A DNA stretch of 64,000 nucleotides from an uncultured Hyphomicrobiales bacterium (GCA_964453555.1 CAYVPC010000001.1:2340-66339), one strand, 5' to 3'; positions 20,251 through 36,202 are shown, counted from the first letter of the stretch. Numbers and translations: made by a program. Notes: generated by a model from the sequence alone, not told the origin.

Positions 20251-20631
20251 CAAGTCTCTCCTGCCGCCGGCCGCAGCCGGCCTTCGTCGTAGATGAACGA
20301 TGCGATTTCGGGAAAGCGATCAGGCGTGAGACAAAAGACACGCGCCGGTCGCCGCCGAGACGCAGCGGCAAGAGAAGCGGTTGTGAAAGCGAAAAAATCG
20401 GACGTCATCGCATAATCTCCATCGTTGCGGAGCCCACGAAGACGCTTCGTGGCGCTTTAGCATTGATGACGCGGTGCAAGCTGCTCCATCAAATCCCGCG
20501 GCCCGATCGACACCGACCCAGCATTTCAAATAGATATTAGTCTATATAACTTATCAACTATAGCGGGGAGCCAAAACGACCGGCTCCGGCCCTTGGCGCC
20601 AGCGCCGACAATGCGGGCGGCTCCCCGGCCT

Positions 20632-21465
20632 TCAGGCATCCTCGACCGGTCCGGCATTGCGGAACAGTTCGCGCAGAATACGTCCTTCGAGCGCTGCGAC
20701 TTCCGGCGAGCCGCGTTCGCGCGGCCGCGGCAGATCAATGCGCTGATCGAGCGCAATCTCGCCGTCCTCGATCATCAGGACGCGGTCGGCGAGCGTGACC
20801 GCCTCGGCTACGTCGTGCGTGACCATGATCGCGGTAAACTTTTGGCCGATCCAGACGCGCTCGATCAGCCGCTGCATCGAGATGCGGGTCAACGCATCGA
20901 GTGACCCGAGTGGTTCGTCGAAGGCAAGGAGTTGCGGACGGCTCACCAGCGCACGCGCGAGCGCCACGCGCTGCTTTTGGCCGCCGGATAGCACCAGTGG
21001 CCAATGATCGCGACGCTCCACCAATCCTACCTCGCGCAATGTGGCGAGCGCCCGCTCCCGCGCATCCGGCGACGAGCGTTCCTTGCCGAGCCCGACCTCG
21101 ACGTTGGCGAGAACCGAGGCCCACGGCAAAAGCCGCGGCTCCTGGAACATGATCCTGACCGCGCCTGTATGCGCCGCCTGCGCAACACCACCGTCCCCAA
21201 AGTGAAACTCCCCATCGCTTGGACGCTCGAGCCCCAGCAGCAGGCGCAGCAGCGTGCTCTTGCCGCAGCCGCTGCGGCCCACGATCGCGACGAACTCGCC
21301 CGAGCGGATGTGCAGATCGATGCCGCGGAGAACCTGATTTTGGCCGAACCATTTCCGCAAATGGCGGATGGTCACCGAAAGACCGCCGCCACGCGCGCCC
21401 ACTTCGCCGGCATCCGGTACGAATTCGACGGCATCGTCGATCCGGCGTATCACCTGGACTGTCAT
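20632..21465 (-). CDS. ssuB: Aliphatic sulfonate ABC transporter ATP-binding protein
   Basis: Motifs [20 protein letters not shown] and LLAFDEP. ATGA overlap with ssuC. Confidence 0.85.
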
Positions 21466-22280
21466 GTCTTGACCTCACCGGCCGGCTGAAAGGCCGGGTG
21501 CCATGCGAGGCACCAACGCTCAAGCAGCCGCGCGGTGCTATCGGCGACCTTGCCGAGTAGCGCGTAGATCAGGATGCTCAGAACTACCACATCGACCAGA
21601 AGAAACTCGCGCGCCTGCATCGCCATGTAGCCGATCCCCGATGACGCGGAAATGGTCTCGGCGACGATCAGGGTGAGCCACATGATGCCGAGCGCATAAC
21701 GCAGGCCGACAAAGATCGACGGCAGCGCGCCCGGCAGGATGACGCGCCAGAATAGCGTCGCCGGCGACATGCCGTAGGTCCGGCCCATTTCGACCAGTTG
21801 CGGATCGACCGTGCGGATGCCGTGCTGCGTGTTGATGTAGATCGGGAAGAAAACGCCCAGCGCCACCAGGAAGACTTTCGCCCCCTCATCGATGCCGAAC
21901 CAAAGGATCACCAGCGGGATCAGCGCCAGATGCGGAATGTTTCGGATCATCTGCAGCGTGCTATCGAAAATCAGGTCGGAGCGGCGCGACAATCCGTTGG
22001 CGAGCCCCAACGCAAAACCAATTCCGCCGCCGATCGCAAATCCGACGATCGCGCGCCAGAAGCTTACCCACATATTTCGCGGCAGCGCACCGCTCATCGT
22101 CAGCTTCCATCCGGCGGCGACCACCGCGGTCGGCGCCGGTAGAATACGAAGCGGGATCACGCCTGCAAGCGATAGCGCCTCCCAGGCGGCAATGATGCCG
22201 ACTGGCAGCGCCCATTGCGCCAACGTCCTCGATCGCGCGGACATGGCCAAGACGAAATTCGTCCGCATGTCGATCATCAC
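21462..22280 (-). CDS. ssuC: Aliphatic sulfonate ABC transporter permease
   Basis: Polytopic BPD-type permease. Overlaps the ssuD stop. Start is GTG 22280 or ATG 22277. Confidence 0.85.
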
Positions 22281-23455
22281 GATTGGGCGGTTTGGCGGGG
22301 CACCGGAAGCTGCTCGTTGGCGATGACCTCGCCGAACGGCCCGGTATTAACGCTTGCCGCAACGGCGTTGCCGTCGCGCGCCGGCAATGGCAGCAACGGA
22401 AACACCAGCTCGGCAAACCGGTACGCTTCCTCAAGATGCGGATAGCCGGACATGATGAACGTATCGATGCCAAGCGCCATATACTCCTTCATGCGCGCGG
22501 CCACGGTTTGCGGATCGCCGACCAGCGCGGTCCCGGCACCGCCGCGTACCAAGCCGACACCGGCCCAAAGATTAGGGCTTATCTCGAGCTTGTCGCGGCG
22601 GCCGCCGTGGAGCTGCACCATGCGCCTTTGACCGACCGAATCCATGCGCGCAAAGATCGACTGCGCGCGCGCGATGGTCTCGTCGGTGACGTGGCTGATG
22701 AGATCGTCGGCGGCCTGCCAGGCTTGCGCATTTGTCTCGCGCACAATCACGTGCAGGCGGATGCCGAAACTCACCTGTCGTCCGAGTTTTGCCGCGAGTG
22801 CCGCCACCGGCGCGGTCTTCTCGGCGACCTGCGCCGGCGGCTCGCCCCAGGTCAAATATTTGTCGATTGTCGCGGCGGCAACGTCGATTGCGGCTGCGGA
22901 CGAACCGCCGAAATAAAGCGGTGGCCGCGGCTTCTGAACCGGCGGAAAGAACAGCCGTCCGTCTTCGATGCGGATATGCTTGCCCTGGAAATTCACCGTT
23001 TCGCCCGCCAGCAGCGCGGTGTAAACAGCGAGAAATTCGTGCGTAACCTCGTAACGTTCGTCATGCGACAGAAAGATGCCATCGCTCCCATTTTCCGTGG
23101 GATCGCCGCCGGTAACGATATTGATCAGGAGCCGCCCCTGCGAAACGCGGTCCAGCGTCGCCGTCATGCGCGCCGCGACGGTCGGCGATTGTAATCCAGG
23201 CCGCACCGCGACGAGATACCTCAACCGCTCCGTCGCGGGCACCAGCGCCGAGGCGATCACCCAGGAATCTTCGCAGCTTCGTCCCGTCGGCAGCAGCACG
23301 CCGAAATAGCCGAGCCCGTCGGCCGCCTGCGCGACCTGGCGCAAGTAACGAAGATCGACCGCACGGGCACCGATCGCGGTGCCGAGATAGCGTCCGTCGC
23401 CGTGCGTCGGTAAAAACCAGAGGACGTTGGCGTGGCCGGGCGCGGCGATGGTCAT
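22277..23455 (-). CDS. ssuD: FMNH2-dependent alkanesulfonate monooxygenase
   Basis: [16 protein letters not shown]...[12 protein letters not shown]...[13 protein letters not shown]...SGYPHLEE is typical SsuD (luciferase-like). ATGA overlap with ssuA. Confidence 0.9.
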
Positions 23456-24402
23456 GAGGTCGGCTTCCTCACCGCGTCGGAGACGACGATTTGCTTGGGA
23501 ACCAGTCCCAGCGCGTAAAACGTGTCGGCAATGCGCTGCTGGTCGGCGATGGCTTCGTCATCCATCGGATGTGCGCCGTAGGCCAGGCGTTTCAGGGCGG
23601 TTTCCAGAACAGACGCCGGAATGCCGATCTGGACGCTGAGTTCAATCGCCACCTCCGTTTCCCTGCCGACGATCCTCCGATCGACCTCGGCAATCGCCGC
23701 GACGATCGCGTCGACGGCGGCTGGATTGGTTTCGGCGAACTTTTGGCTGGCAAAATAATATTGGCGGTTCGGCGCCAATCCGACAGCATCGGTCAATGTC
23801 ACCGCACCGGTTGCCGCCTGCGCGGCGGCCAGGAACGGATCCCAAATGACCCAGGCATCGACGGCGCCGCGTTCGAACGCCGCGCGGGCGTCGGCGGGCG
23901 CAAGGTAGATCGGCTCGATTTCTGAATACTTCAGGCCGGCATGCTCTAGTGCGCGCACCAACAGAAAATGAACGTTGGACCCTTTGTTGAACGCAACCTT
24001 CCTACCTTTGAGATCGGCCAACGTCTTGATCGGTGTATCGCGCGGCACGAGTATAGCTTCACCTCTCGGCGCCGGCGGCTCGTGGGCGACATAGACAAAC
24101 GGAACGCCGGCAGCCTGGGCGAAAATCGGTGGCGTTTCGCCAGCCTGCCCAAAATCCACGCCGCCGGCGTTGAGTGCCTCAAGCAGCGGCGGGCCCGACG
24201 GAAACTCCTTCCACTCCACACTGAAGCCGAGGGCGGAGAGACTGCTTTCAAGCCGATGCCTGCCCTTGAGAAGGATGAGATTGCCGTATTTCTGGAATCC
24301 GATCGTGACGACCCGATCCGGCGCCGATCTGGCGCCGGACAGGAAGCCGCCGGCAAATCCAAGAGCGAGCAGGATGCCGGCAATCGTGCGGATAAGTTTC
24401 AC
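23452..24402 (-). CDS. ssuA: Sulfonate ABC transporter substrate-binding protein
   Basis: Start trimmed to GTG ([19 protein letters not shown]..., a signal peptide). The longer track ORF would overlap the porin gene. NMT1/SsuA-like pattern. Confidence 0.75.
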
Positions 24403-24425
24403 TCGCCGCCGCCATAAGTCGTCGG

Positions 24426-26102
24426 TTAGAACCGGAAGCGCACGCCGGTTGTCGTCGCAAGATTGGTGCGGGCAATATCGCCATTGGCGATGCCGCCAAA
24501 CGCTGCCGAGTACATGGTGCCGATGTACCAGTCCCACTTCGGCAGGAAGTGCCAGTCGAGAAGCAATGAATACGTGTCGTACCACCCGGCGCACCGGGAG
24601 TTGGCAGCCGCCGCCCCGGGACTGCAATTAACCCCGTTCACGTATGTGCTCTGGATGTAGTGATAGTAGCCACCCGCCAACGACAGATCATTGGTGATGC
24701 CGTATTTGACACCCGTCCACATGACCTGGAAAATTTCGTTGGTGCAGCCGGTACCAGATCCGCACGCGGCGTTGAACGCGTTGTTATTGATCGAAGTGCC
24801 GTTTGCGCCCGTCACAGTACCGGCATTGGTCGTATTGGGATTAACGTACAAGAAGCCGTCATCCCGGAATGCAGTCTGCTTATCGCTCGGATTGGAGAAC
24901 TGGATCCATTCATAGCCGGCATACAGCGTAATGAGCGGTGTCGGCGGAGGTGGAGCCGCTCCTTTGACGGCGATGGGCGGAGCTGCTGACGTACTGCCGA
25001 AGGTCCATTTGGCCAGCGCCATGAAGGCCGTCTGGTTGGAGAGCGTCGCCTTGAGGGCGGCATCAGCGGGGAACGTGGCTGGCCAGCCACCGGGGGTGAG
25101 TTGGCCCGGGTACATGAGCGTAACGTTTACCGCGTCTTTCTCCCAGGTGCCGATGACGTCCAATGAGATCACGCCGGGAACCCAATGCTTGATGTCCCCG
25201 CCGATGCCGCCTGAGACCGCGCCGTTATTGGGGTTATACGAGCTGTAGCCGCCAGAACCACCGAATAATCCGACCGGCTGCACCATGGCTGACAGCCGGA
25301 AGTCGCCGATGTTCTCGCGATATTTGAACGCCGTGGTCCAGCGGGCGTCCTCGGTGTCGCCGGCACCAGCGCTCTTGCCGGAATAACCGACCAGCGAAAA
25401 CCCATAGGCGCCGCCCATCGGATCGTAGGCAATGACGCCGTCCGTCTCCAGCACGTTTTGCCGGCCGAAGGTCAGCGTGCCATAAACCGGCTGGCTAAAA
25501 CCGACATAAGTATTCGTGTTCAGCCAGCCCCACCTGCTCGAGTCGGACGGTATAGCTTCCTGGTTCTGCGCCGTGTTGATGCCGACCTGCAAAGACTGGG
25601 GGCCGTTGGCCAGCAGCAGCGAATACGGATCGAACGCAAGCTCGCCGTTGGCGATAAACGACCAGCCGCCCCCAACAGGCTCGATGATCTTGACCCCTAC
25701 GTTCGATTGGCTCAAGGCGTTGGGAGCCTGGACAAACCCGCTTATCCGGCCCGTCCCTCCCGTCCCACCATTGGCAGCGATGTAGCTGACGCCCTGTGGG
25801 TAGTTCCGGTCGAACGGTGTGCCGTTCGTCATGTAGCTGACACCCATATCCACGGTGCCGTAGAAGGTTACCCCGTACCAGCTCAGCGGGCACTTGCTAA
25901 GAAAGAAGTCGTAAGCGCTGCTGCATGTGGCCGTCGCCGGCGCTATGGCGTACACCGGCGCCTTGGTCACCATCGCATCGTCGGCCAAAGCCGGCGCTGC
26001 TCCCAACACGCAGACGGCCAGCACCGCGCCGGCGAGAAATGCAGCATTCCGCCGTTTTGTTGTGCGGACGGGCGCAAAAGAGTCTGTTACGTGCTTCTCC
26101 AT
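24426..26102 (-). CDS. Outer-membrane porin (alphaproteobacterial type), first gene of the ssu transcription unit
   Basis: Internal ATG (MEKHVTD...), signal peptide ...GAAPALADDAMVTKAP, Gly/Tyr-rich beta-strand pattern and C-terminal ...TTGVRFRF. Only 23 nt separate it from ssuA. Confidence 0.8.
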   Translation of the reverse strand: MEKHVTDSFAPVRTTKRRNAAFLAGAVLAVCVLGAAPALADDAMVTKAPVYAIAPATATCSSAYDFFLSKCPLSWYGVTFYGTVDMGVSYMTNGTPFDRNYPQGVSYIAANGGTGGTGRISGFVQAPNALSQSNVGVKIIEPVGGGWSFIANGELAFDPYSLLLANGPQSLQVGINTAQNQEAIPSDSSRWGWLNTNTYVGFSQPVYGTLTFGRQNVLETDGVIAYDPMGGAYGFSLVGYSGKSAGAGDTEDARWTTAFKYRENIGDFRLSAMVQPVGLFGGSGGYSSYNPNNGAVSGGIGGDIKHWVPGVISLDVIGTWEKDAVNVTLMYPGQLTPGGWPATFPADAALKATLSNQTAFMALAKWTFGSTSAAPPIAVKGAAPPPPTPLITLYAGYEWIQFSNPSDKQTAFRDDGFLYVNPNTTNAGTVTGANGTSINNNAFNAACGSGTGCTNEIFQVMWTGVKYGITNDLSLAGGYYHYIQSTYVNGVNCSPGAAAANSRCAGWYDTYSLLLDWHFLPKWDWYIGTMYSAAFGGIANGDIARTNLATTTGVRFRF

Positions 26103-26326
26103 ATAAACCCCCAAGTGCATAGATTTCATAGACCATTGGATGTTTGCTTATCGATATTGTCAACTAACAACAAGAAGAAAGCCCAAGAAAATCGACTCTT
26201 TCGAGCGCAGCGTCAACATCGACTAATGTTTCTTTCACCGGCGGCGCGAAATCACTCGAAATATTCTATGATCGATGTTATTTGTAGCTTATTAGACTTC
26301 ACTTTGGATTCGCCGCGGTCGCCCCA

Positions 26327-26797
26327 ATGCTCACAGCAAAAGGAAAGTACAGCCTCAAGGCGCTCGTCTATCTTGCGACGCTTGCGCCGGAAGCGACCAG
26401 CCCGGCCGTGGACATCGCCGCCGCCAACAACATTTCGAAGAAATTTCTTGATGCGATTCTCGGAGAGCTGCGCAACGCCGGCGTTGTCCATAGCCGGAAG
26501 GGGCCTGGCGGCGGCTACAGGCTCGCGCGTGCGCCGAGCGAGATCAAGATCGGCTATGTGATCCGCATGATCGATGGTCCACTAGCGCCGATCGCCTGCG
26601 CCAGTCGCACCGCCTATCAGCCATGCCGCGACTGCAAGGACGTGAAGGTGTGCACTGTGCGTCTCACAATGACCAAGGTTCGCGATGCAATGTCCGAAGT
26701 GCTCGATCGCGTGACCCTTGCCGATATGGTCGCGCTCGGTAAGCGCGGCAATGTCGCAAAAACCAAGCTCAGACGCAGAGCGAGGTTCCGATCCTGA
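26327..26797 (+). CDS. Rrf2-family transcriptional regulator with a Cys cluster
   Basis: MLTAKGKYSLKALVYLA...ISKKFLDAILGELRNAGVVHSRKGPGGGYRLAR is the Rrf2 wHTH. The Cys cluster CASRTAYQPCRDCKDVKVC could ligate Fe-S. Confidence 0.85.
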   Translation: MLTAKGKYSLKALVYLATLAPEATSPAVDIAAANNISKKFLDAILGELRNAGVVHSRKGPGGGYRLARAPSEIKIGYVIRMIDGPLAPIACASRTAYQPCRDCKDVKVCTVRLTMTKVRDAMSEVLDRVTLADMVALGKRGNVAKTKLRRRARFRS

Positions 26798-28369
26798 CTA
26801 TCGCTTCCCCCACGGTACCCACGACCACACGCGTTCGTGGCAGTAGTAAATCAGGATCTTCGTCAAAACCTCTGTGACCGCGACCGATCCGGCGACTTTC
26901 GGGCTGCCGGTGATGACGAATGCCACGATGAACGTATCGAGGCTGCCGGTCGCGCGCCAACTTACGGCTTTCGCCAGCGAGCGGCCGTGCGTTTCGGTCC
27001 AACGCGCGAGTTTGGCTTTTCCCCCGGCCGCAGATCCCGCGAGCGAGCCGATTGAGCCGCGTGGTGGAGAGACATCGTCAATGCAGCCCATCCCGACGGT
27101 GTCATAACTTTCCGGATCGATGAGGATAAAGCTTCCGGTGTCCCGGCATTCGTCGTAGCGGTCAACGGCAATGGGCCGATCGAGCTTTAGCACGCCGGAA
27201 GCGATTTCGTTCGGTGCAATCGCGTCTGCCCGAACCGGGCGCTGGGTGTTGAGATCAAATATCGATATGCCCGGTTCGATCTTCACGTTCACAGTCACAG
27301 TCGCAAGCTTAAGAAGATACCGGCGTCCGGGACTGAACGGCTCGCTGTTCATCCAGAATATTCGGGCGGAGATACGATCGCTCAGGGTTGGAGCATGCTC
27401 CAATCCAGCAAGGACATCGCCGCGAGAGGCATCAACCTGATCGGCAAAGGTTAGAGTGACTGAGCGCCCCGCTGTCGCGCGTTCTAGATCGCCGTCAAAT
27501 GTAGCGATACGTGCGATGCGGGTGATGCGGCCGGACGGCAACAGTCTAACCTGCATGTTAGTCCAAACTTCGCCGTTCGCGATCAGGCCGCTGTAACCGC
27601 GGAAGTCCGGATTGGGCCGGTTGACCCATTGAATGGGCATTCGGAAAGGTTGTGGGTTCGTTGCAGGACGAGGTTCGGCCTGTTCGAGATATTCGAGCAG
27701 CGTAAACCCTCGATACCAGGGCATTTGCGCCGAACGATCGACGATGTTGTCGCCACTTTTGGCAGCAATCGGTATGGCGGCAATCTCCGTAACGCCCACG
27801 ACCGCCGCAAAGTCGCGAAACTGCGCGGCGACTGAACGAAAGATGCCCTCAGACCATTCGGCCCGATCCATCTTGTTGACGGCCAGGACGATCTTCTGCA
27901 CGCCAAGCATCGACAGGATAACAACGTGACGCTTCGTCTGTGCGGTCAATCCGTCATCCGCGCTAACCAGTACTAAACCCAGGTCAGCGAGCGACGCGCC
28001 CGTAGCCATATTGGCTGTGTATTGTTCGTGGCCGGGCGCATCGATGACAATGAATTTACGCCGCGCTGTTTCAAAAAAGCGATAGGCGACATCTATTGTG
28101 ATTTTTTGTTCACGCTCGGCGGCGAGGCCGTCCAGCAACAAGGCGAAATCAAGAGCGCCGTCCTCGGCGCCGTGTTTGCGTGAATCGGCGGCGAGAGCGT
28201 CGAGCTGATCGTCAAATAGTTGCTTGGACTCATAGAGCAAGCGCCCAATCAAAGTCGATTTGCCATGATCGACCGAGCCGCAAGCTACAAATCGCAAAAG
28301 GCTTTTGCGCCCGTGCTGCGCTAGCAATGAAACAGAGTCGTAGCGGCTGTGCTGCGCATGCACATTCAT
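26798..28369 (-). CDS. cysN: Sulfate adenylyltransferase subunit 1 (GTPase) fused to a C-terminal DUF2061-like membrane-type domain instead of an APS kinase
   Basis: G-motifs GSVDHGKST, DAPGH and NKMD. The C-terminal ~65 aa SLAKAVSWRATGSLDTFIVAFVITG...YYCHERVWSWVPWG align with both repeats in ORF 50707..51573. The ATG overlaps the cysD stop (TGATG). Confidence 0.9.
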   Translation of the reverse strand: MNVHAQHSRYDSVSLLAQHGRKSLLRFVACGSVDHGKSTLIGRLLYESKQLFDDQLDALAADSRKHGAEDGALDFALLLDGLAAEREQKITIDVAYRFFETARRKFIVIDAPGHEQYTANMATGASLADLGLVLVSADDGLTAQTKRHVVILSMLGVQKIVLAVNKMDRAEWSEGIFRSVAAQFRDFAAVVGVTEIAAIPIAAKSGDNIVDRSAQMPWYRGFTLLEYLEQAEPRPATNPQPFRMPIQWVNRPNPDFRGYSGLIANGEVWTNMQVRLLPSGRITRIARIATFDGDLERATAGRSVTLTFADQVDASRGDVLAGLEHAPTLSDRISARIFWMNSEPFSPGRRYLLKLATVTVNVKIEPGISIFDLNTQRPVRADAIAPNEIASGVLKLDRPIAVDRYDECRDTGSFILIDPESYDTVGMGCIDDVSPPRGSIGSLAGSAAGGKAKLARWTETHGRSLAKAVSWRATGSLDTFIVAFVITGSPKVAGSVAVTEVLTKILIYYCHERVWSWVPWGKR

Positions 28370-29343
28370 CAAAAGTAACCTTCCTGCTTCTTTCGTTCCA
28401 TCGACGTCGCACCGTCGTGATCGATCACCCGTCCGCGCCGCTCGGAATCTGGGCTTTCCAGTGTTTCCCGAATGAGCTCTGGAACGGTGCGCGCGGTGCT
28501 TTGGATCGCACCAGTCAGCGGATAGCAGCCGAGCGTGCGAAATCGCACCATTTCGGTTCGAGGACGTTCGCCGGGATTGAGCGGAAATCGTTCGTCATCC
28601 ACCATGATCAGCGCATCATCGCGCTCCACCACTGGGCGCGGTGCAGCAAAGTAAAGTGGCACGACCGGAATCCGCTCTTGATGAATGTAGAGCCACACAT
28701 CCAGTTCCGTCCAGTTGGAAAGCGGAAAAACGCGGATGCTTTCGCCGCGGCGCTTACGGCCGTTATAGATGCGCCACGGTTCTGGCCGCTGCCGCTTTGG
28801 ATTCCAGAGATGGTCCGCCGTCCGGATTGAAAACACGCGTTCCTTGGCGCGCGACTTCTCCTCATCACGGCGCGCTCCGCCAATGGCGGCGTCGAAGCCA
28901 TGCAGGTCAAGCGCCTGCCGCAGGGCCTGCGTCTTCATCACATCGGTATGCAGTTCCGAACCGCTGGCGAAGGGGTTAATGCCTCGCGCAAGACCTTCCC
29001 GATTGACGTGCACAATCAAGTCGAGGCCGAGCTCGGATATGCGCGCGTCGCGAAAAGCGATCATCTCGCGAAACTTCCATGTCGTGTCGACGTGCAGCAG
29101 GGGAAATGGCGGCTTCGCGGGATAGAAGGCTTTCAGCGCGAGATGTACCAGGACCGAAGAGTCCTTGCCAATCGAGTAAAGCATCACCGGAGTTTCTGAC
29201 TCGGCGACTGCCTCGCGGATGATATGGATGCTTTCTGACTCGAGTTGCTCGAGGTTCGTCAACGACGAAGGGCCCTGCGATTGCGTATTCGCAAAAGGGG
29301 CAAAATCGTCGATGCGATCGGAAACGGGTGCGAGAGCATCCAT
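28369..29343 (-). CDS. cysD: Sulfate adenylyltransferase subunit 2
   Basis: [18 protein letters not shown]...[14 protein letters not shown]...[18 protein letters not shown]...[13 protein letters not shown] is classic CysD. Confidence 0.95.
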
Positions 29344-29373
29344 GCTCAGTCCTTTACAATTAGAGGCTTAGGC

Positions 29374-30204
29374 CTACGATGCGTCAGCGCGTGTAAAGCG
29401 GCCGTTGCTGGTCAGATGCAGGCCGCATTCTTTTTTCTGCCCCCGTTCCCACCACCAGCGCCCAGCTCGTTCCGGCTCACCGGGTGCCACCGCGCGCGTA
29501 CATGGCGCGCAGCCGATCGATAGAAAACCGCGGTCGTACAACACGTTGTATGGAACATTATTCTCCTGCACGAATGCGTGCGTCTGTTCCCGCGTCCAGT
29601 CGAACAATGGATTTGCCTTGATCAATCGGCGTGACGCGTCAAATGAGACCGGCGCGACTTGCGCCCGGTCATAGGACTGATCGGCGCGAATGCCGGTAAT
29701 CCACGCGGTGCGGTCCTTAAGCGCGCGAGCAAGCGGCGCGACTTTTCGAGTTGCACAGCAATCAAGCCGTGCTTCGACGGAGACGCGGAAGCCGTCGGTG
29801 CCTTGCCGTGCAACGAGCGCTTCGAGGTCAGCGTGGATAGGTGAAAATCCGTAAATTCGCGTTTCATAGCGCTTTTCGGTCGCTGCCCAGACATCGTGCG
29901 TCTCGGGAAAAAGCCGTCCGGTGTCGAGCGTGACCACGTCGATCGCCAGCGTCTGCGAAAAAATCGCGTGGGTGATTGCCTGATCTTCGAGACCAAAGCT
30001 CGTGGTAAAGACAATGCGGCCCGGAACATGCCTACGGAGGGTCGCCACGCGCTCGAAAAGATCGAGCACGGGGAATTCGACGGCCAACAAAGTCGCGCTC
30101 TCTCGCCGGTTTATGTCGTCGGCGATATCTGTGACTTTCTGCGGGACGTTTTGCTCGGGAGACGACGGCCGGGGGACCCCGCGCAATTTCAAAACTTCAG
30201 ACAT
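29374..30204 (-). CDS. cysH: Adenylyl-sulfate (APS)/PAPS reductase, Fe-S type
   Basis: Internal ATG (MSEVLKL...). The CC pair (RLDCCATRK) plus CAPC (SIGCAPCT) fit the [4Fe-4S] APS-reductase subtype. The catalytic KECGLH motif is present. Confidence 0.88.
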   Translation of the reverse strand: MSEVLKLRGVPRPSSPEQNVPQKVTDIADDINRRESATLLAVEFPVLDLFERVATLRRHVPGRIVFTTSFGLEDQAITHAIFSQTLAIDVVTLDTGRLFPETHDVWAATEKRYETRIYGFSPIHADLEALVARQGTDGFRVSVEARLDCCATRKVAPLARALKDRTAWITGIRADQSYDRAQVAPVSFDASRRLIKANPLFDWTREQTHAFVQENNVPYNVLYDRGFLSIGCAPCTRAVAPGEPERAGRWWWERGQKKECGLHLTSNGRFTRADAS

Positions 30205-30734
30205 TTTGGAGCAGTCCCCAGAACCCCGCTTCGTTCTGTCACATAGACTTAAAAGCCAATGACGCCAATGACCTACAAAAGAAAAGAAAATCCATACCGC
30301 GGAGCACAAGCGCCACAGATTTCCGTTTCAATTTTCCGACAAAAGTGAGAAAGGTGTGCGGCTAATTCTTTACTCCGGTGCGAGTGCGCAGAGGTCGGTA
30401 CTCCGCCTGAAGCAGCGCTCAAAAGCTCTTCGCTTCGATAGCCAATCCGTTCACACCAGACACATCCAACCAGTCTCAGCAAGGCGCAAACTCAGTCTCG
30501 GCCGGCAAAATTCGGATATTGAAAATTCGGGACCGGAAGCCCGCAAGAATCTCGCCAAATCGGAGAGGCGCTGCCTCAGGGGGCAAGCTTCTCTGTCAGT
30601 GGCGCCCGAAGAACGCGGAAATCGCCGGACCGCGCGATATTGGTCGAAATCCTCCGCGTCGTCGAAAACAAGAGTAGAAACTTCGCATCCTCTTATGGTA
30701 TATAAAATCAATGGATTAATTATGGGGGAGGGCG

Positions 30735-30875
30735 ATGCGTTTTTTGCAGCATATCGCGGTGTTCTCAGCGTTTGCGATCATTGCGGCCGTGGTCGCTCTC
30801 GGACGACCGCACGGGAGAACCGCTGCGCTCGTTGTGCCGCTTTCGGACGTTCAGGTCGCGACATTCCAAAAGTAG
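30735..30875 (+). CDS. Possible small exported/membrane peptide (46 aa) upstream of the encapsulin gene
   Basis: Below the track's size cutoff; found by eye. GGAGG lies 3 nt before the ATG. Product MRFLQHIAVFSAFAIIAAVVALGRPHGRTAALVVPLSDVQVATFQK has a signal/TM-like N-terminus. No homolog recognised. Confidence 0.25.
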   Translation: MRFLQHIAVFSAFAIIAAVVALGRPHGRTAALVVPLSDVQVATFQK

Positions 30876-31266
30876 GCCGTACGATAGGCCAGCCGTTGGG
30901 GTCAGGCCGTCGCGGCCGCTATCCGGCGTGGAGACCCAAAGTCCGCTTGCAGCAGCCTCGAATCGACTTGCACTGGAATGCCGGTGACGTGACGGCGGCG
31001 CTTCGCCTTGAACGGCTTGAAAAGCCACGCCCGACCAGACTGGCCTCTATCCATCGACTCAGTCGAATATATTTGCTCGACGACCAACAATCATGAATGA
31101 AAATATTTCAAATAGGACATTCCGGCAGCATGAGCTTCCTGATCTCGTGCAAAACAGTGGAAAATGAAGTTACTAATTTTGTGCGGGACGTGGAAAACAA
31201 CCTTCGTGGTGCTTCGTCCGCGCCATCTAATTTTTCCCATACTTACGCCACCGAGAGGCCGACCGC

Positions 31267-32232
31267 ATGGCCGACGACACTGAAGATCGCAGAACACTCG
31301 CAGAAGGCGCTGCGCGTCAACTAGCCAACGCCACAAAAACACGGGCGCAATGGGGCGGCATAACACCGCGCTGGCTCGTCCCCTTGCTGCAGTGGACTCC
31401 GGTCGAGGCCGGCATTTTTCGTTTGAATCGGGTCAAGGAAACGCGGGGCGCGACCGCCGCCTCGTCGGCGGACGTCGAATGCAGCCCGCCGCGGGATCGC
31501 GATCGCGCGCTGCCGGAAACGTTTGTGGACTACGAGGAGCAGCCGCGTGAATACTTTCTCAACGCGGTGACAACGGTTCTCGACGTGCAGACGCGCGTCT
31601 CCGACCTCTACAGCCATCCGTTCGACCAGATCCAGGAGCAGCTTCGCCTTTTGATCGAAAAGGTCAAAGAGCGCCAGGAGGGCGAGCTCATCAACAATCC
31701 CGAATACGGCTTGCTGGCTAACACCGCGCCGTCGATGAAGATCAAAACGCGCAGCGGTCCGCCGACGCCGGACGATCTTGATGAGCTCATCGCCAAAGTT
31801 TGGAAAGAGCCCGCCTTCTTTCTCGCCCATCCACGCACCATCGCTGCGTTCGGCCGCGAGTGCACAAGGCGCGGTGTCCCGCCGCCGACGGTCAACATGT
31901 TCGGTTCGCCGTTTCTGACCTGGCGCGGTCTTCCGCTGGTGCCGTCCGACAAGGTGCCTTTCGAAGAGAAGAAGAAAATCAGCAAAACCAAGATTCTGCT
32001 GTTGCGCACCGGAGAGAAGAGGCAGGGTGTCGTTGGATTGTTCCAGCCCGGCGTTCCCGGTGAAGTGCAGCCGAGCCTCTCGGTCCGCTTCATGGGCATC
32101 AACCACAAGGCGATCGCCTCCTACTTGATCTCGCTTTATTGCTCGCTGGCGGTCCTGACCGAGGACGCACTTGGCGTTCTCGAGGATGTCGAGGTCGGCA
32201 GGTATCCCGAATACGATCATAAATATGCCTGA
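31267..32232 (+). CDS. Family 2A encapsulin shell protein (SrpI-like, HK97 fold, no cNMP-binding domain)
   Basis: 321 aa. The blocks AARQLANATKT, ITPRWLVPLLQWTPVEAGIFRLNRV, TRVSDLYSHPFDQIQEQLRL, INNPEYGLLA, PTPDDLDELIAKVWKEPAFFLAHP, AAFGRECTRRGVPPP, WRGLPLVPSDKVP, RQGVVGLFQPG and LSVRFMGINHKAIASYL match my memory of Synechococcus SrpI. The stop overlaps the desulfurase start. Confidence 0.88.
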   Translation: MADDTEDRRTLAEGAARQLANATKTRAQWGGITPRWLVPLLQWTPVEAGIFRLNRVKETRGATAASSADVECSPPRDRDRALPETFVDYEEQPREYFLNAVTTVLDVQTRVSDLYSHPFDQIQEQLRLLIEKVKERQEGELINNPEYGLLANTAPSMKIKTRSGPPTPDDLDELIAKVWKEPAFFLAHPRTIAAFGRECTRRGVPPPTVNMFGSPFLTWRGLPLVPSDKVPFEEKKKISKTKILLLRTGEKRQGVVGLFQPGVPGEVQPSLSVRFMGINHKAIASYLISLYCSLAVLTEDALGVLEDVEVGRYPEYDHKYA

Positions 32233-34246
32233 TATTCACCCCGCGGCGGATCCGGGCATGGCATCGGCGGCGGCCGCGGATACCGGCCTGCCCGAGGCGA
32301 GCCAACTCGAGCAGATGGCTGCTTCGCTCGCAGCCGCGCACGATCCCACGTTGATTGCCAGGATGGCGAACGCATTGTTCATCGCGTTGCCAAACAAGCC
32401 TGTGCCGGGGCTGGGGGCGGCGTTGTCCTCGGCGCCGGTGTTTTCGGTCGAGCCGGCCTATGCTTCAATTCCAGGCGCGCCGTCCGCCGGTATGCCTCTA
32501 ACACCCAATAACAATCCCGGACTCCCCGCGGTGCCGTGGCCCGGCATGGGAGCGGCTCAGCCATCGACTCCGGGCTTCGCGACTGAACCGCGACTATACC
32601 GAGGTGTAGCGGGGCGGCCGGCGCCGGCTACGACCGGGGCGGGGAACTCATCCGTTCCTTCTTACGCATCACCGTCCGACGCCGCCGCTGCTCCGCCCGT
32701 ACAAAATGGCTTTGTCCGCGAGCCGGACTTCAGCGCGTTACCTGCGGAGCTTGCGAGCGCTCTGTCGTTTGCTCCGCACTTTAACGATGCCGCGGCTCCG
32801 TACGGGGAAATCAGTTCATTGTATGGGCCGGCGGCCGCGCCGCCCAAACCCGACCATACCTATTACTTCTTGAACTATGCGCAGCCGGTCGCCGGCCCGG
32901 CGGCCGCCACCCGGAAGACGACGTTCGATCCTTCGGTGCAATCCGTCGATCTGGGTTCTTTGGCCTCGCAACATCGGCCCGAGATCGCCGCAGCATCGAT
33001 CTCGGAGGTTCGCGCCTTCGATCCGCACGTTTTTCGCCGCGATTTCCCGATCCTCGACCAGACCGTCAATGGCCGCCCCCTGGTTTGGCTCGATAACGGC
33101 GCGACGACGCAGAAGCCGCAGACAGTGATCGACCGCCTGGTCCGTTTCTACCAATTCGAGAACTCGAATATTCATCGCGCCGCCCACACGCTGGCGGCGC
33201 GATCGACCGATGCCTATGAATCGGCGCGCGAGAAAGTGCGCCGCTTCATCAATGCGCCGAGCACGCGTGACGTCATTTTCGTGCGCGGCGCCACCGAAGG
33301 CATCAATCTTGTCGCTCAGGCATGGGGACGCAGAAATGTCGGCAAGGATGACGAGATCGTCGTCACCCATCTCGAGCATCACGCCAACATCGTGCCGTGG
33401 CAGCAGCTCGCCGTCGAGAAGGGCGCCAGGCTGTTGGTCGTCCCGGTGGACGACAGCGGTCGGGTTTTGCTCGACGAGTACGAGAAATTGCTCAGCCCGC
33501 GAACGCGGATCGTCGCGTTCGCGCATGTTTCGAATGCGCTCGGTACCGTCACCGCGGCGCAGGAAATGACGGCGATGGCGCATCGGCACGGCGCCAAGGT
33601 GCTGATCGACGGCGCCCAGTCGATTTCACATATGCCGATTGATGTGCAGGCTCTCGATGCAGATTTTTTTGTTTTTTCGGGCCACAAGATGTTTGCGCCG
33701 ACTGGCATCGGCGTCGTCTTCGGCAGGGCCGGTGAACTCGAAGCCATGCCGCCGTGGCAGGGCGGCGGCAACATGATTGCCGACGTGATGTTCGAAAAAA
33801 CGATCTTTCAAGGCGTCCCGGAGCGTTTCGAAGCGGGGACGGGAAACATTGCCGATGCGGTCGGTCTCGGCGCGGCCATCGACTACCTGAACGGTATCGG
33901 CATGAGCAATATCGCCGCCTATGAGCATGAGCTCCTGGCCTATGCCCTGCAGGGACTGTCAACGGTGCCGGGTCTCAGGCTGATCGGCTCGCCACGCGAA
34001 AGGGCCAGCGTCATCTCTTTTGTGCTCGATGAGTGCAAGACCGAGGACGTCGGCAAGGCGCTCGACCGCGAAGGCATCGCTGTGCGTGCCGGCCATCATT
34101 GCGCCCAGCCGATCCTCCGGCGTTTCGGCGTCGAAGCGACAGTGCGTCCTTCATTGGCGCTCTATAACACGACGGAAGACATCGACGCGCTGATCGATGC
34201 GTTGCTGCGCATTCAAAGCGGACGCGGTCACGCGCTCTATCGCTAA
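32225..34246 (+). CDS. Cysteine desulfurase (SufS/CsdA group II) with a ~260-aa disordered N-terminal cargo-loading domain; predicted encapsulin cargo
   Basis: Start at the internal ATG 32225 (MPDIHP...), 8 nt inside the shell gene. Residues 1-~262 are Pro/Ala/Gly/Ser-rich and low complexity. The C-terminal domain has WLDNGATTQKP, HHANIVPWQ, SGHKMFAPTGIG (PLP Lys) and RAGHHCAQP (catalytic Cys). Confidence 0.9.
   Translation: MPDIHPAADPGMASAAAADTGLPEASQLEQMAASLAAAHDPTLIARMANALFIALPNKPVPGLGAALSSAPVFSVEPAYASIPGAPSAGMPLTPNNNPGLPAVPWPGMGAAQPSTPGFATEPRLYRGVAGRPAPATTGAGNSSVPSYASPSDAAAAPPVQNGFVREPDFSALPAELASALSFAPHFNDAAAPYGEISSLYGPAAAPPKPDHTYYFLNYAQPVAGPAAATRKTTFDPSVQSVDLGSLASQHRPEIAAASISEVRAFDPHVFRRDFPILDQTVNGRPLVWLDNGATTQKPQTVIDRLVRFYQFENSNIHRAAHTLAARSTDAYESAREKVRRFINAPSTRDVIFVRGATEGINLVAQAWGRRNVGKDDEIVVTHLEHHANIVPWQQLAVEKGARLLVVPVDDSGRVLLDEYEKLLSPRTRIVAFAHVSNALGTVTAAQEMTAMAHRHGAKVLIDGAQSISHMPIDVQALDADFFVFSGHKMFAPTGIGVVFGRAGELEAMPPWQGGGNMIADVMFEKTIFQGVPERFEAGTGNIADAVGLGAAIDYLNGIGMSNIAAYEHELLAYALQGLSTVPGLRLIGSPRERASVISFVLDECKTEDVGKALDREGIAVRAGHHCAQPILRRFGVEATVRPSLALYNTTEDIDALIDALLRIQSGRGHALYR
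32351..32380 (+). other. LIARMANALF motif in the desulfurase N-terminal domain (candidate shell-targeting motif)
   Basis: Resembles the LARLANEFF-type motif reported in the disordered N-terminus of Family 2A cargo desulfurases (from memory). It is the only well-ordered-looking hydrophobic patch near the N-terminus. Confidence 0.5.
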
Positions 34247-34412
34247 TCGCCGGTCGTCTCGCTTCGAAGGCTTTAAGCGGAGATAAAGAGATCAGATTCG
34301 TATTTTTCAGACTGGGCTTTTCAGGGAACTCTCTTTCAATAATCGCAATAAATTCGCGTAATACATGCTAGCCGCGAATGACTAAACTGCCTCATCGGGT
34401 CGAGGGGCAGGA

Positions 34413-35372
34413 ATGTCAGACGCGGATCAGAAAATAAGGCAGGTGCGGGAAGACTCCAGTTTGGAGACCGAAGCGCCTTCCCCTCGCTGGAATCTCGATG
34501 CCATCGTTTCCGAGCTGAGATTCTCCCGCGAGGTTAGCCACAATATCCGGCCAAAGGGGATTTTGCGCCAGTCGCCGTCGCGCGACGCGCTTTCCAGGAT
34601 ACTCGACGATCTGTCGGCGGCGCTGTTTCCGACTCATTATGGCCAATCGGAGCTGGGCCGCGAGAACATCGACTATTTCGTCGGCGACACGTTGAACCGG
34701 GCGCTTGTGACGCTGGTCGAGCAGGTTCATCGCAGCTTGTTGTTTTCCGGCGATGTTCGCAGCCATAGCGAAGTTTACAGCGATGCGTTGTTACTCGTGC
34801 GCGAATTCGCCGCCGAACTCCCGACGATCCGTGGCGTTTTGGTCGGCGACGTGCGCGCAGCCTTCCAGGGCGATCCCGCCGCCACCAACCTCTATGAGAT
34901 TTTGCTCGGCTATCCGGGGACGACCGCGATCATTTATCACCGTCTTGCGAACTCACTCTATCGGCGTGGGGCGCCACTCATCGCCCGTCTGATTTCCGAC
35001 ATTGCCCGTTCGAAGACGGGGATCGACATTCACCCCGGCGCCGACATCGGGCCGAACTTTTTCATCGATCACGGCACTGGCGTCGTCATCGGCGAAACGA
35101 CGGTCATTGGCGAGCGCGTGCGCATTTATCAAGCGGTCACGCTCGGCGCGAGGAGCTTTCCGGCAGACAACAGCGGAACGCTGATCAAAGGGAATGCGCG
35201 TCACCCGATCATCGAAGATGACGTGGTGATCTACGCTGGTGCTACGATTTTGGGACGGGTCACGGTTGGCCGCGGCTCGACCATCGGCGGCAATGTTTGG
35301 CTCACGCACAGCGTACCGCCCAACAGCCATATTTCGCAGGCGCAGACTCGCACCAGCGAGCGTGCGGACTAG
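34413..35372 (+). CDS. cysE: Serine O-acetyltransferase (long EpsC/CysE type)
   Basis: Left-handed beta-helix hexapeptide region DIHPGADIGPNFFIDHGTGVVIGETTVIGERVRIYQAVTLG...IIEDDVVIYAGATILG and a SATase N-terminal region. Confidence 0.9.
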   Translation: MSDADQKIRQVREDSSLETEAPSPRWNLDAIVSELRFSREVSHNIRPKGILRQSPSRDALSRILDDLSAALFPTHYGQSELGRENIDYFVGDTLNRALVTLVEQVHRSLLFSGDVRSHSEVYSDALLLVREFAAELPTIRGVLVGDVRAAFQGDPAATNLYEILLGYPGTTAIIYHRLANSLYRRGAPLIARLISDIARSKTGIDIHPGADIGPNFFIDHGTGVVIGETTVIGERVRIYQAVTLGARSFPADNSGTLIKGNARHPIIEDDVVIYAGATILGRVTVGRGSTIGGNVWLTHSVPPNSHISQAQTRTSERAD

Positions 35373-35413
35373 GTCAAACCCGATCGCGTCATTATGGATC
35401 TTGGGGTCTTAAA

Positions 35414-36202
35414 ATGGTTCTTCCCGATATCAATCCGCTTTATTCGGTCTCGGGATTTTTTGTCGGCGTCCTGGTTGGATTGACGGGCGTCGGCGGCGGG
35501 GCGCTCATGACGCCGCTTCTTGTTCTGCTGTTCGGAATTCATCCAACCACGGCCGTCGGTACGGATTTGCTCTTCGCCTGCATCACCAAGACCGGCGGTA
35601 CGTTTGTCCACGGTCTGAGCAATACTGTTGATTGGAAGATAACCCGGAGGCTGGCCTCCGGCAGCGTGCCGGCCACGGCGCTGACCTTGCTTCTGCTGGC
35701 TTATTTCAACCACGGCAGCGACGAAGGCGCTTCCGGATTGATCACGACGGTTTTGGGATTCGCTCTAATCCTGACAGCGATCGCGCTGGTTTTTCGTAAG
35801 TGGATTCTCGATTTTTTCGCGACGCGCGTCGGCGAATTTAAGGAGGGGCGGGCGCGGATGTTCACTGTCGTGCTCGGCGTTTTGCTGGGCGTGCTGGTGT
35901 CGCTTTCCTCGGTCGGAGCCGGTGCCATCGGCGTCACTGTGTTGCTGATCCTCTATCCGCGGCTCCCCGTGGCGAGAATTGTCGGCTCGGACATTGCCCA
36001 TGCCGTACCGCTCACCCTCATCGCCGGTGTCGGTCATTGGTTTCTCGGTTCTATTGATTGGTCGCTGCTCGGCTCGCTGCTAGTCGGATCTCTGCCCGGC
36101 ATCGCCATCGGCAGCTACATTACCGCGCGGATTCCGGATCGCGTGTTGCGGCCGATCCTTGCCTCAACACTAGCGGTGGTCGGCGGCCGGCTGGCATTTT
36201 GA
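35414..36202 (+). CDS. TauE/SafE-family sulfite/sulfonate exporter (DUF81)
   Basis: Internal ATG (MVLPDINPLY...). Polytopic, with GLTGVGGGALMTPLL near the N-terminus and a second GAGAIGV repeat. Confidence 0.85.
   Translation: MVLPDINPLYSVSGFFVGVLVGLTGVGGGALMTPLLVLLFGIHPTTAVGTDLLFACITKTGGTFVHGLSNTVDWKITRRLASGSVPATALTLLLLAYFNHGSDEGASGLITTVLGFALILTAIALVFRKWILDFFATRVGEFKEGRARMFTVVLGVLLGVLVSLSSVGAGAIGVTVLLILYPRLPVARIVGSDIAHAVPLTLIAGVGHWFLGSIDWSLLGSLLVGSLPGIAIGSYITARIPDRVLRPILASTLAVVGGRLAF

What the first reader, a model, noticed from the sequence alone, without database searches (positions are those of the whole stretch)
20632..36202. 15.6-kb sulfur-economy supercluster built around the encapsulin operon
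Seen: the contiguous genes are porin-ssuA-ssuD-ssuC-ssuB (4-nt overlaps), an Rrf2 regulator, cysH-cysD-cysN, about 1 kb of non-coding DNA, the encapsulin shell gene, the cysteine desulfurase, cysE and a TauE/SafE exporter. Established: ssu and cys genes belong to the sulfate-starvation response, and Family 2A encapsulins were linked to sulfur starvation in Synechococcus. Inference: the nanocompartment here is embedded in one regulon covering uptake (sulfonates), reduction (APS route), cysteine synthesis (SAT), cysteine-sulfur mobilisation/storage (encapsulated desulfurase) and sulfite export. This gives an unusually complete genomic context for assigning its physiological role.
Basis: partly seen in the sequence, partly recalled or inferred. 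Interest (0 to 1): 0.6.

Follow-up and report, generated by a model that had tools for sequence, protein, structure and literature searches.

The report
Sulfur gene cluster with encapsulin
A real 15.6-kb block of sulfur-scavenging genes surrounds a sulfur-storing protein compartment, and a shared 23-base DNA signal suggests that one unstudied repressor encoded in the block switches most of it on together when sulfur is scarce.

Summary
The gene order recurs at 99.99% identity in independent metagenome assemblies, so it is not an assembly artefact.

The "one regulon" reading is partly supported, in silico only. I derived a 23-bp dyad, TAGTCTAT-N7-ATAGACTA, from the upstream regions of orthologues of the cluster's Rrf2 gene in other genomes. 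With this window left out of training, the three best matches in the whole 3.67-Mb genome all lie in the cluster's intergenic DNA. They sit before the porin-ssuADCB operon, in the 1-kb gap before the encapsulin gene, and just beyond ssuB.

The same dyad lies upstream of the encapsulin gene in 21 of 80 related loci, against 1.6 expected. In a same-genus relative it precedes dispersed ssuADCB and tauE genes.

The Rrf2 is CymR-like but has four invariant cysteines, which suggests an Fe-S cluster.

- cysHDN has its own conserved leader without a site.
- Sulfite reductase and cysK lie elsewhere in the genome.
- The nearby FMN reductase gene is broken.
- The cysHDN-encapsulin adjacency occurs in none of the 80 loci, and no sampled genus relative has the encapsulin.

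Overall this is a lineage-specific consolidation of a known kind of system with a plausible new regulator. No expression data could be obtained.

The parts
20538..20560 (.). Dyad S1, TAGTCTATATAACTTATCAACTA. It is the best or second-best match in the whole genome. It lies 72 nt beyond the ssuB stop, after a terminator-like hairpin, and faces only gene remnants, so it is an orphan operator.
   Evidence: Scores: (22.7-23.3 bits). Hairpin at 20578-20591. Remnants.
20632..21465 (-). ssuB, the sulfonate ABC transporter ATPase.
   Evidence: NF008420, 312 bits, best hit but below the cut-off.
21462..22280 (-). ssuC, the permease.
   Evidence: NF008470, 350.6 bits against a cut-off of 347.
22277..23455 (-). 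ssuD, the FMNH2-dependent alkanesulfonate monooxygenase.
   Evidence: TIGR03565, 633 bits against 518.
23452..24402 (-). ssuA, the periplasmic binding protein. It has a GTG start and begins 23 nt after the porin stop.
24426..26102 (-). Outer-membrane beta-barrel (predicted porin) and first gene of the ssu operon. The start is taken at M10. Gene callers differ and place it at 26102, 26120 or 26129.
26113..26166 (.). Tandem dyads S2 (26113-26135) and S3 (26144-26166), 31 bp apart and directly upstream of the porin start.
   Evidence: 19.1-19.9 and 14.4-18.5 bits. The layout is conserved in G016 (locus L086).
26269..26291 (.). Weak dyad 36-58 nt before the rrf2 start. Its position is conserved upstream of rrf2 orthologues, so it is a putative autoregulation site.
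   Evidence: 10 bits here; 15-23 bits in L086, L085 and L003.
26327..26797 (+). Rrf2-family regulator. It is CymR-like in the DNA-binding domain and has four invariant cysteines, C91-X8-C100-X2-C103-X5-C109.
26798..28369 (-). cysN (sulfate adenylyltransferase GTPase subunit) fused to a C-terminal DUF2061. It has no APS-kinase domain.
28369..29343 (-). cysD.
   Evidence: NF009214, 517 bits against 413.
29374..30204 (-). cysH, an APS/PAPS reductase with the CC...CxxC signature. Its start is M36 of the long ORF, giving 276 aa.
30205..30355 (-). cysH leader, conserved with relative G016 (82% over 142 nt). It contains the repeat CATTGGCGTCATTGGC and no dyad.
30696..30718 (.). Dyad S4, TGGTATATAAAATCAATGGATTA, inside the 1-kb gap. 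It lies 549 nt before the encapsulin ATG and 492 nt from the cysH ATG.
   Evidence: 20.8-23.1 bits.
30735..30875 (+). 46-codon micro-ORF that starts 17 nt after S4. One gene caller calls it. No homologue was found, so it is unsupported.
31047..31069 (.). Weak dyad-like site 198 nt before the encapsulin ATG.
   Evidence: 11 bits.
31267..32232 (+). Family 2A (SrpI-like) encapsulin shell protein.
32225..34246 (+). Cargo cysteine desulfurase with a long N-terminal extension. It overlaps the shell gene by 8 nt.
34413..35372 (+). Long-form serine O-acetyltransferase.
   Evidence: NF041874, 161 bits against 150; TIGR01172, 167 bits, below its cut-off of 211.
35414..36202 (+). TauE/SafE-family membrane protein, starting 41 nt after cysE.
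   Evidence: The 87%-identical orthologue in G009 has its own dyad 210 bp upstream.
36886..37212 (-). Fragment of an NADPH-dependent FMN reductase. It is the only candidate SsuE nearby and appears decayed.
   Evidence: PF03358, profile positions 58-133 only.

Best explanation
The region is a genuine, lineage-specific consolidation of sulfur-scavenging operons next to a Family 2A desulfurase encapsulin operon. Most of it is probably controlled by the Rrf2-family repressor encoded in its middle.

Proposed mechanism:
1. A dimer of this CymR-like Rrf2 carries four invariant cysteines, three of them at the positions of the IscR cluster ligands. This suggests an Fe-S cluster or a reactive thiol centre.
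2. When sulfur is sufficient, the dimer binds the 23-bp dyad TAGTCTAT-N7-ATAGACTA. It binds two tandem copies over the porin-ssuADCB promoter, one weak copy before its own gene, and one strong copy at the head of a long leader before enc-CyD-cysE-tauE.
3. When cysteine or sulfur falls, the protein leaves the DNA.
4. The cell then makes an outer-membrane channel, the sulfonate importer and the monooxygenase, which yields sulfite. It also makes serine acetyltransferase, which yields the cysteine precursor, a TauE-type sulfite or organosulfonate carrier, and the encapsulated desulfurase that parks cysteine sulfur as S0.
5. cysHDN (the APS route) sits in the cluster but has its own conserved leader, so it may answer to another signal.

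Shown here: the gene identities, the dyads and their genome-wide uniqueness, and their conservation with these genes in other genomes.

Inferred: that the Rrf2 is the protein that binds the dyad, that it acts as a repressor, what its signal is, and the operon boundaries.
For: 1. Gene identities are established.
2. The dyad was derived from DNA upstream of rrf2 orthologues in 11-12 other loci. With this window left out of training, and even with all genus members left out, the three top hits in the 3.67-Mb genome are window 20538, 30696 and 26113 at 19.8-23.1 bits. The next hit anywhere scores 15.4-15.9 bits.
3. Of 80 related encapsulin loci, 21 have a site of at least 16 bits within 600 bp upstream of enc. 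Three hundred column-permuted matrices give a mean of 1.6 and a maximum of 7. Further sites precede adjacent cysE or rrf2 genes.
4. An Rrf2 orthologue (54-72% identity) sits directly beside enc-CyD in L003, L018, L019, L023-L026, L032 and L034.
5. An orthologue of at least 50% identity is present in 8 of 10 genomes whose enc locus has a site, against 3 of 10 without a site.
6. Within the family, orthologues neighbour ssuD/ssuABC or cysH, with sites between them.
7. In same-genus G009, ssuADCB, tauE and rrf2-cysH lie on three separate contigs. The ssuADCB and tauE loci each have a dyad in front (19.6 and 20.8 bits).
8. Four cysteines are invariant across the subfamily, and three align with the IscR ligands. 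The nearest solved relatives are 4CIC and the CymR structures.
9. Desulfurase encapsulins are induced by sulfur starvation in Synechococcus and Acinetobacter (PMC8049743, PMC10836720).
Against:
- The strongest site, S1, faces only gene remnants.
- S4 lies about 550 nt from enc and about 490 nt from cysH, which is far for a simple repressor.
- The site near rrf2 in this genome is weak, at 10 bits.
- cysE-tauE has no site of its own, and whether it is co-transcribed with enc-CyD is unknown.
- The cysH leader has no site.
- The phyletic match is imperfect: L051, L043 and L050 have an orthologue but no site, and L041 has a site but no orthologue was found. The genomes compared are also related to one another.
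- About half of the orthologue loci in the family show no site of at least 15 bits within 16 kb.
- Only two Rrf2 genes were found in this 85%-complete genome, so an IscR-like role cannot be excluded.
Confidence: 0.6

Rival explanations
1. The blocks are merely neighbours. Separate sulfur operons were brought together by rearrangement and gene transfer, and each is still run by its own regulator, for example a CysB/Cbl-type LysR protein encoded elsewhere. On this view the dyad matters only for ssu and for rrf2 autoregulation.
For: - Both flanks are decayed: an AKR fragment and a truncated small gene on the left, and a broken FMN reductase on the right.
- DNA similarity to genus relatives breaks exactly at block borders.
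- cysHDN has a separate conserved leader.
- LysR regulators neighbour 27% of Family 2A shells in the published survey.
- Encapsulin loci in Hyphomicrobium and Pseudomonas have neither the dyad nor the Rrf2 orthologue.
Against: - S4 is one of the two best dyads in the genome and lies in the encapsulin leader.
- Twenty-one of 80 encapsulin loci carry the dyad upstream.
- The only LysR gene nearby (39229-40128) is YafC/GcvA-like, not CysB-like.
Confidence: 0.2
2. The Rrf2 is an IscR-like sensor of Fe-S status or redox state. The encapsulated desulfurase would then be controlled as part of Fe-S cluster supply or redox stress rather than sulfur starvation.
For: - Three of the four cysteines align with the IscR cluster ligands.
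- No separate IscR-like gene was found in this incomplete genome.
- The cargo is a SufS-type desulfurase.
Against: - In other genomes the orthologues sit beside ssu, cysH and tauE, not beside isc or suf genes.
- Genomes with the orthologue also keep a separate IscR-like gene next to an IscS-like gene (L099, L102).
- The dyad differs from the IscR type 1 and type 2 consensus sequences. This comparison is from my own knowledge.
Confidence: 0.12
3. The dyad is bound by some other factor, or is a promoter element, and its link with the rrf2 gene is coincidental.
For: - The motif is AT-rich and contains TATA-like cores.
- A second, different palindrome (TAGAAnAnTnTTCTA) sits closer to enc in many loci. 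More than one factor therefore acts on these leaders.
Against: - The dyad symmetry extends over 23 bp and includes G/C arm positions.
- It lies directly before rrf2 orthologues in distant lineages.
- Rrf2 is the only regulator gene that recurs beside these loci.
- Column-permuted matrices of the same composition do not reproduce the enrichment.
Confidence: 0.08

Closest known systems
Family 2A desulfurase encapsulin operons: S. elongatus SrpI (Nichols 2021, PMC8049743) and Acinetobacter R-AT-Enc-CD (Benisch 2024, PMC10836720)
   Same: - A shell gene is followed by a cargo cysteine desulfurase with a long N-terminal extension.
- A serine O-acetyltransferase is part of the operon.
- The published systems are induced by sulfur starvation and store S0.
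- ABC-transporter neighbours are already reported for 30-38% of loci.
   Different: - There is no rhodanese.
- The acetyltransferase lies downstream of the cargo and is followed by TauE.
- The cluster directly adjoins cysHDN, which occurs in none of 80 related loci, and a porin-ssuADCB operon.
- The predicted regulator is an Rrf2 protein, not CysR as in Synechococcus. No regulator is known for Acinetobacter.
CymR, the Rrf2-family master repressor of cysteine metabolism in Bacillus and Staphylococcus
   Same: - It has the same fold family and is among the nearest solved relatives (2Y75, 3T8R).
- Its predicted targets likewise include sulfonate uptake (ssu) and cysteine-synthesis genes. Repression when sulfur is sufficient is the proposed logic in both.
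   Different: - The match is below the CymR equivalog cut-off (83.5 bits against 195).
- This protein carries four invariant cysteines that CymR lacks. The signal is therefore probably a bound cluster or thiol chemistry rather than a CysK-OAS complex.
- The operator sequence is different.
- It occurs in Alphaproteobacteria.
IscR, NsrR and RirA: Fe-S cluster Rrf2 regulators
   Same: Three cysteines lie at the canonical ligand positions after the wing-helix domain, and the protein is expected to bind a palindromic operator as a dimer.
   Different: - A fourth cysteine in a 6-residue insertion replaces the His or Asp/Glu fourth ligand.
- The genomic partners are ssu, cysH, tauE and the encapsulin, not isc/suf, hmp or iron-uptake genes.
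E. coli ssuEADCB and cysDNC/cysH under CysB and Cbl
   Same: Sulfonate desulfonation and sulfate activation and reduction genes serve the sulfate-starvation response.
   Different: - There is no intact ssuE.
- A porin gene heads the operon.
- CysN lacks CysC and carries DUF2061.
- The reductase is of the APS type.
- No CysB-like gene lies in cis.
[quoted passage not shown]
   Same: This is an annotation-level prediction, from gene context, that some Rrf2 proteins regulate cysDN. Here rrf2 abuts cysN.
   Different: - That label comes with no operator, no regulon and no link to encapsulins.
- In this genome the dyads lie before ssu and enc rather than before cysHDN.

Membership tests
Family 2A encapsulin system | The shell protein matches the Family 2A model and lacks the cNMP-binding insertion of Family 2B. 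| tested here: met
   NF041162 scores 507 bits against a cut-off of 380 over residues 11-316. The Family 2B model matches only its C-terminal half. PF19307 has E = 4.5e-106.
Family 2A encapsulin system | An adjacent cargo cysteine desulfurase carries a long N-terminal loading domain. | tested here: met
   NF041166 scores 825 bits against 800. The SufS domain starts near residue 288 of the long ORF. The cargo gene overlaps the shell gene by 8 nt.
Family 2A encapsulin system | The shell self-assembles into an icosahedral compartment that encloses the cargo and accumulates S0. | not testable with these tools
   This needs expression, electron microscopy and sulfur analysis.
Family 2A encapsulin system | Expression is induced by sulfur starvation. 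| not tested
Only operator-like dyads are available as indirect evidence.
ssuEADCB alkanesulfonate system | SsuA, SsuB and SsuC transporter components plus the SsuD monooxygenase are present. | tested here: met
   SsuC, SsuD and SsuA score above their cut-offs. SsuB is the best hit but falls below the equivalog cut-off.
ssuEADCB alkanesulfonate system | A partner NAD(P)H:FMN reductase (SsuE) is present. | tested here: not met
   None lies in the operon. The nearest FMN_red gene, 36886-37212, matches only profile positions 58-133. A reductase elsewhere in the genome was not searched for.
Assimilatory sulfate reduction, APS route | CysD and CysN are present without an APS kinase, and the reductase has the CC...CxxC Fe-S signature. 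| tested here: met
   CysD scores 517 bits against 413. CysN scores 527 bits against 336 and has DUF2061 in place of CysC. The CysH motifs DCCATRKV and GCAPCT were read. TIGR02055 scores 227 bits, just under its cut-off of 235.
CymR (equivalog NF047409) | The protein scores above the curated CymR cut-off. | tested here: not met
   It scores 83.5 bits against 195. It is a member of the Rrf2 superfamily (TIGR00738, 119 bits against 73) but is not a CymR equivalog.
Fe-S cluster Rrf2 regulators | Three conserved cysteine ligands lie C-terminal to the wing-helix domain. | tested here: met
   C91, C103 and C109 align with the cysteines of an IscR-like protein, and C100 is a fourth invariant cysteine. 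Cluster binding itself is not testable here.
   Strong dyads precede porin-ssu and lie in the enc leader. A weak one precedes rrf2. None lies in the conserved cysH leader or before cysE.

The most novel reading that the evidence does not exclude
A previously uncharacterised, four-cysteine, CymR-like Rrf2 repressor is the missing regulator of desulfurase encapsulins in many Alphaproteobacteria, and perhaps in Acidobacteria through a more distant relative. It would read cellular sulfur status through an Fe-S or thiol centre. That would close a feedback loop in which the product pool of the encapsulated desulfurase controls its own synthesis together with sulfonate scavenging.
Probability: 0.35. 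Interest if true: 0.7.

Novelty: new variant of a known kind. Interest (0 to 1): 0.5.

Why it matters
Desulfurase encapsulins are widespread. They are known to store elemental sulfur and to be induced by sulfur starvation. Outside cyanobacteria, however, nobody knows what switches them on or how stored sulfur is tied to uptake.

This cluster, together with the dyad that recurs at encapsulin, ssu and tauE genes in other genomes, provides three things:
- a concrete candidate regulator;
- a defined 23-bp operator that can be tested by gel shift, DAP-seq or a deletion in cultured relatives;
- a natural example in which a regulon dispersed in a sister species has been gathered into one block.

If the four-cysteine centre proves to be an Fe-S cluster, it would be a new way for bacteria to sense sulfur supply. 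If the prediction fails, the cluster remains an ordinary, if tidy, neighbourhood of sulfur genes.

Tried and rejected
- **Rfam:** a scan of the whole window found no riboswitch or leader RNA.
- **Promoter and terminator scan:** the consensus scan was uninformative, with 3 promoter-like sites against 4.8 expected.
- **ORF 30356-31096 in the gap:** it has no family hit and no homologue in 130 loci. I treat it as non-coding.
- **Micro-ORF 30735-30875:** no homologue was found by tblastn in the loci or in the genome (the query there was offset by one base). Leaders of other loci show no conserved small ORF.
- **Gap as repeat or mobile element:** only a 70-80-nt stretch at 75% identity resembles two other contigs.
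- **LysR gene at 39229-40128 as the sulfur regulator:** it is YafC/GcvA-like.
- **Second palindrome, TAGAAnAnTnTTCTA:** it was found near enc in Beijerinckiaceae and Rhodoblastus loci, but its best hits in this genome lie elsewhere, none in the cluster's intergenic DNA.
- **Weaker genome hits of the dyad (C110, C136, C88, C5, C24):** none flanks a clear sulfur gene.
- **Assembly artefact:** excluded.
- **Sequence search of solved structures for the porin:** nothing found.
- **Literature:** no paper in the held library links Rrf2 with encapsulins or describes a proteobacterial Rrf2 sulfur regulator.

Full report
**1. What is there**

- On the minus strand lie ssuB (20632-21465), ssuC (21462-22280), ssuD (22277-23455) and ssuA (23452-24402), joined by 4-nt overlaps.
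- A 558-567-codon gene (24426-26102/26129) precedes them and ends 23 nt before ssuA.
  - This gene hits no Pfam or NCBIfam model and no solved structure.
  - It has a signal peptide and ends in ...GVRFRF.
  - It has more than 1000 homologues, mostly from Xanthobacteraceae metagenome bins. Many are named 'predicted porin' and some carry PF13609.
  - 'Porin' is therefore a fair label.
- The Rrf2 gene (26327-26797, +) follows.
- Convergent with it is cysN-cysD-cysH (26798-30204, -).
  - CysN ends in a DUF2061 module instead of an APS kinase.
  - CysH has the CC...CxxC signature of APS reductases.
- After 1062 bp without a supported gene come four genes on the plus strand:
  - the Family 2A shell (31267-32232);
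  - its cargo desulfurase (32225-34246);
  - a long-form serine acetyltransferase (34413-35372);
  - a TauE/SafE protein (35414-36202).
- Rfam finds nothing in the window.

**2. Is the arrangement real, and is it conserved?**

- The identical Rrf2 protein is encoded on ten contigs from several samples.
- A 445-kb JGI contig and a 64-kb ENA contig carry the whole 20.5 kb with two mismatches. The juxtaposition is therefore not a binning or assembly artefact.
- It is, however, lineage-specific.
  - None of 24 same-genus and 16 same-order genomes sampled has a Family 2A shell.
  - Five genus members searched with the DNA also lack it.
- Eighty loci encoding related shells (70-91% identity; Hyphomicrobiales, other Proteobacteria, Acidobacteria) were compared.
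  - All loci that extend far enough have the desulfurase.
  - Many have cysE.
  - A few have ssu genes nearby (L013, L077, L078).
  - One has tauE.
  - None has cysHDN.
- DNA similarity to genus relatives breaks at block borders.
  - G016 shares rrf2-cysN-cysD-cysH plus 150 nt of cysH leader (81% identity) and a porin gene.
  - G009 shares ssuADCB (77%) and tauE (78%) on other contigs.
- Both flanks of the cluster are decayed.
  - On the left are a 67-codon aldo-keto-reductase C-terminal fragment and a truncated small gene. An intact paralogue of the small gene lies on contig C171.
  - On the right is an FMN-reductase fragment.
- The cluster is therefore a mosaic assembled in this lineage.

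**3. A shared cis-element**

- Upstream regions of rrf2 orthologues from twelve loci gave a 23-bp dyad, TAGTCTAT-N7-ATAGACTA.
- A scan of the whole 3.67-Mb genome put the four best hits all inside this cluster:
  - S1, 20538-20560;
  - S4, 30696-30718;
  - S2, 26113-26135;
  - S3, 26144-26166.
- I retrained the matrix without the window, and again without any genus member. S1, S4 and S2 remain the top three at 19.8-23.1 bits. The next hit anywhere scores 15.4-15.9 bits.
- The weaker hits elsewhere do not flank clear sulfur genes.
- S2 and S3 are 31 bp apart, directly upstream of the most likely porin start (M10, preceded by GGGGG).
- A weak copy lies 36-58 nt before rrf2. This position is conserved in L086, L085 and L003.
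- S4 lies in the 1-kb gap.
- S1 follows the terminator-like hairpin after ssuB and faces only gene remnants.

**4. The element travels with these genes**

- In 1.48 Mb of encapsulin loci there are about 95 hits of at least 15 bits. The whole G000 genome has six.
- Twenty-one of 80 loci have a hit of at least 16 bits within 600 bp upstream of enc. Three hundred column-permuted palindromic matrices give a mean of 1.6 and a maximum of 7.
- Other hits precede a divergent or leading cysE, or the rrf2 gene that follows the desulfurase.
- Acidobacterial loci carry a related form, ATGTCTA-N9-TAGACAT.
- In same-genus G009, the ssuADCB operon has a 19.6-bit site just upstream of ssuA. A solitary tauE (87% identical protein), set between unrelated genes, has a 20.8-bit site 210 bp upstream.
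- What is dispersed in G009 is contiguous here.

**5. Who binds it?**

- Rrf2 is the only regulator gene that recurs.
  - Orthologues of 54-72% identity sit beside enc-CyD in ten loci.
  - In the family, 20 of 120 genomes (12 of 62 genera) have one. These often lie next to ssuD/ssuABC or cysH, with sites between them.
- Orthologues of at least 50% identity occur in 8 of 10 genomes whose enc locus has a site, and in 3 of 10 without one. These genomes are related to one another, so this is support and not proof.
- The protein is closest to 4CIC and to the CymR structures. It fails the CymR equivalog cut-off.
- It has four invariant cysteines, C91-X8-C100-X2-C103-X5-C109. Three of them align with the IscR ligands.
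- Sources name its homologues only 'Rrf2 family protein'.
- I found no paper that gives an operator or a regulon, or that links Rrf2 to encapsulins.

**6. Limits of the 'one regulon' idea**

- The 150-nt cysH leader is conserved with G016, contains a CATTGGC repeat and has no dyad. In G119 and G009, rrf2 and cysH are convergent, with the site on the rrf2 side. cysHDN may therefore be controlled differently.
- cysE-tauE has no site in the 166-bp gap. Whether it is co-transcribed with enc-CyD is unknown.
- Sulfite reductase candidates (C158, C3) and a cysK-like gene (C330) lie elsewhere and have no sites.
- The cluster has no rhodanese, no sulfate transporter and no intact ssuE.
- The nearby LysR gene is not CysB-like.

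**7. Comparison with what is known**

- Shell-desulfurase-acetyltransferase operons, their induction by sulfur starvation and their S0 storage are published.
- The published neighbourhood survey already lists ABC-transporter components at 30-38% of loci and LysR regulators at 27%. It does not list Rrf2.
- The cluster as such is an extended member of a known kind.
- The new elements are the predicted four-cysteine CymR-like regulator and its operator, and the evidence that a dispersed regulon was consolidated around the encapsulin in this lineage.

**8. Verdict**

- Best explanation, at about 0.6: an Rrf2-controlled sulfur-scavenging and sulfur-storage module, with cysHDN as a neighbour of uncertain regulatory status.
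- Interest is moderate, at 0.5.

Noticed in passing
window 19861-20631: The strongest dyad in the genome (S1) has no intact target. The DNA to its left holds a 67-codon aldo-keto-reductase C-terminal fragment fused behind the first 27 codons or so of a small conserved gene (MSDNYVIEIRP...). An intact paralogue of that gene lies on contig C171. S1 looks like an orphan operator left by a deletion.
   Followed up: partly
L014, L016, L020-L022, L026, L027, L037, L041, L045 (about -50 and -71 from the enc ATG): A second palindrome, TAGAAnAnTnTTCTA, occurs close to the encapsulin start in Beijerinckiaceae, Rhodoblastus and Methylovirgula loci. It often appears as two copies 21 bp apart. It is not found in this cluster, and its binding factor is unknown.
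   Followed up: partly
window 30205-30355; L086 753-894: The cysH leader is 82% conserved with genus relative G016. It contains a T-rich tract and the direct repeat CATTGGCGTCATTGGC. It may be a separate regulatory element for cysHDN.
   Followed up: partly
G000 contig C40:17583-18484 and 5324-10731: A paralogous Rrf2 gene (79% identity) has a near-identical promoter stretch. It lies on a contig with two full porin paralogues (78% and 65%), a porin N-terminal fragment and an RND efflux pair. Only a weak dyad (12.5 bits) is present there.
   Followed up: partly
window 26798-27000: The fusion of CysN to DUF2061, with no APS-kinase domain, is conserved in G016 (527 aa) and in independent assemblies. 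The role of the two-helix membrane module on a sulfate-activating GTPase is unexplained.
   Followed up: no
L066, L068, L077, L081 (Acidobacteria), about 150-200 nt before enc: A conserved block, TGTTGTATACT...CCCCGACAA, lies in the encapsulin leaders downstream of the dyad. It could be a promoter or a leader element.
   Followed up: no
window 36886-37212: Only a partial FMN_red match (profile positions 58-133) remains of the sole flavin reductase candidate near ssuD.
   Followed up: partly
It is not a match to the Rrf2 dyad, and I did not test its conservation.
   Followed up: no
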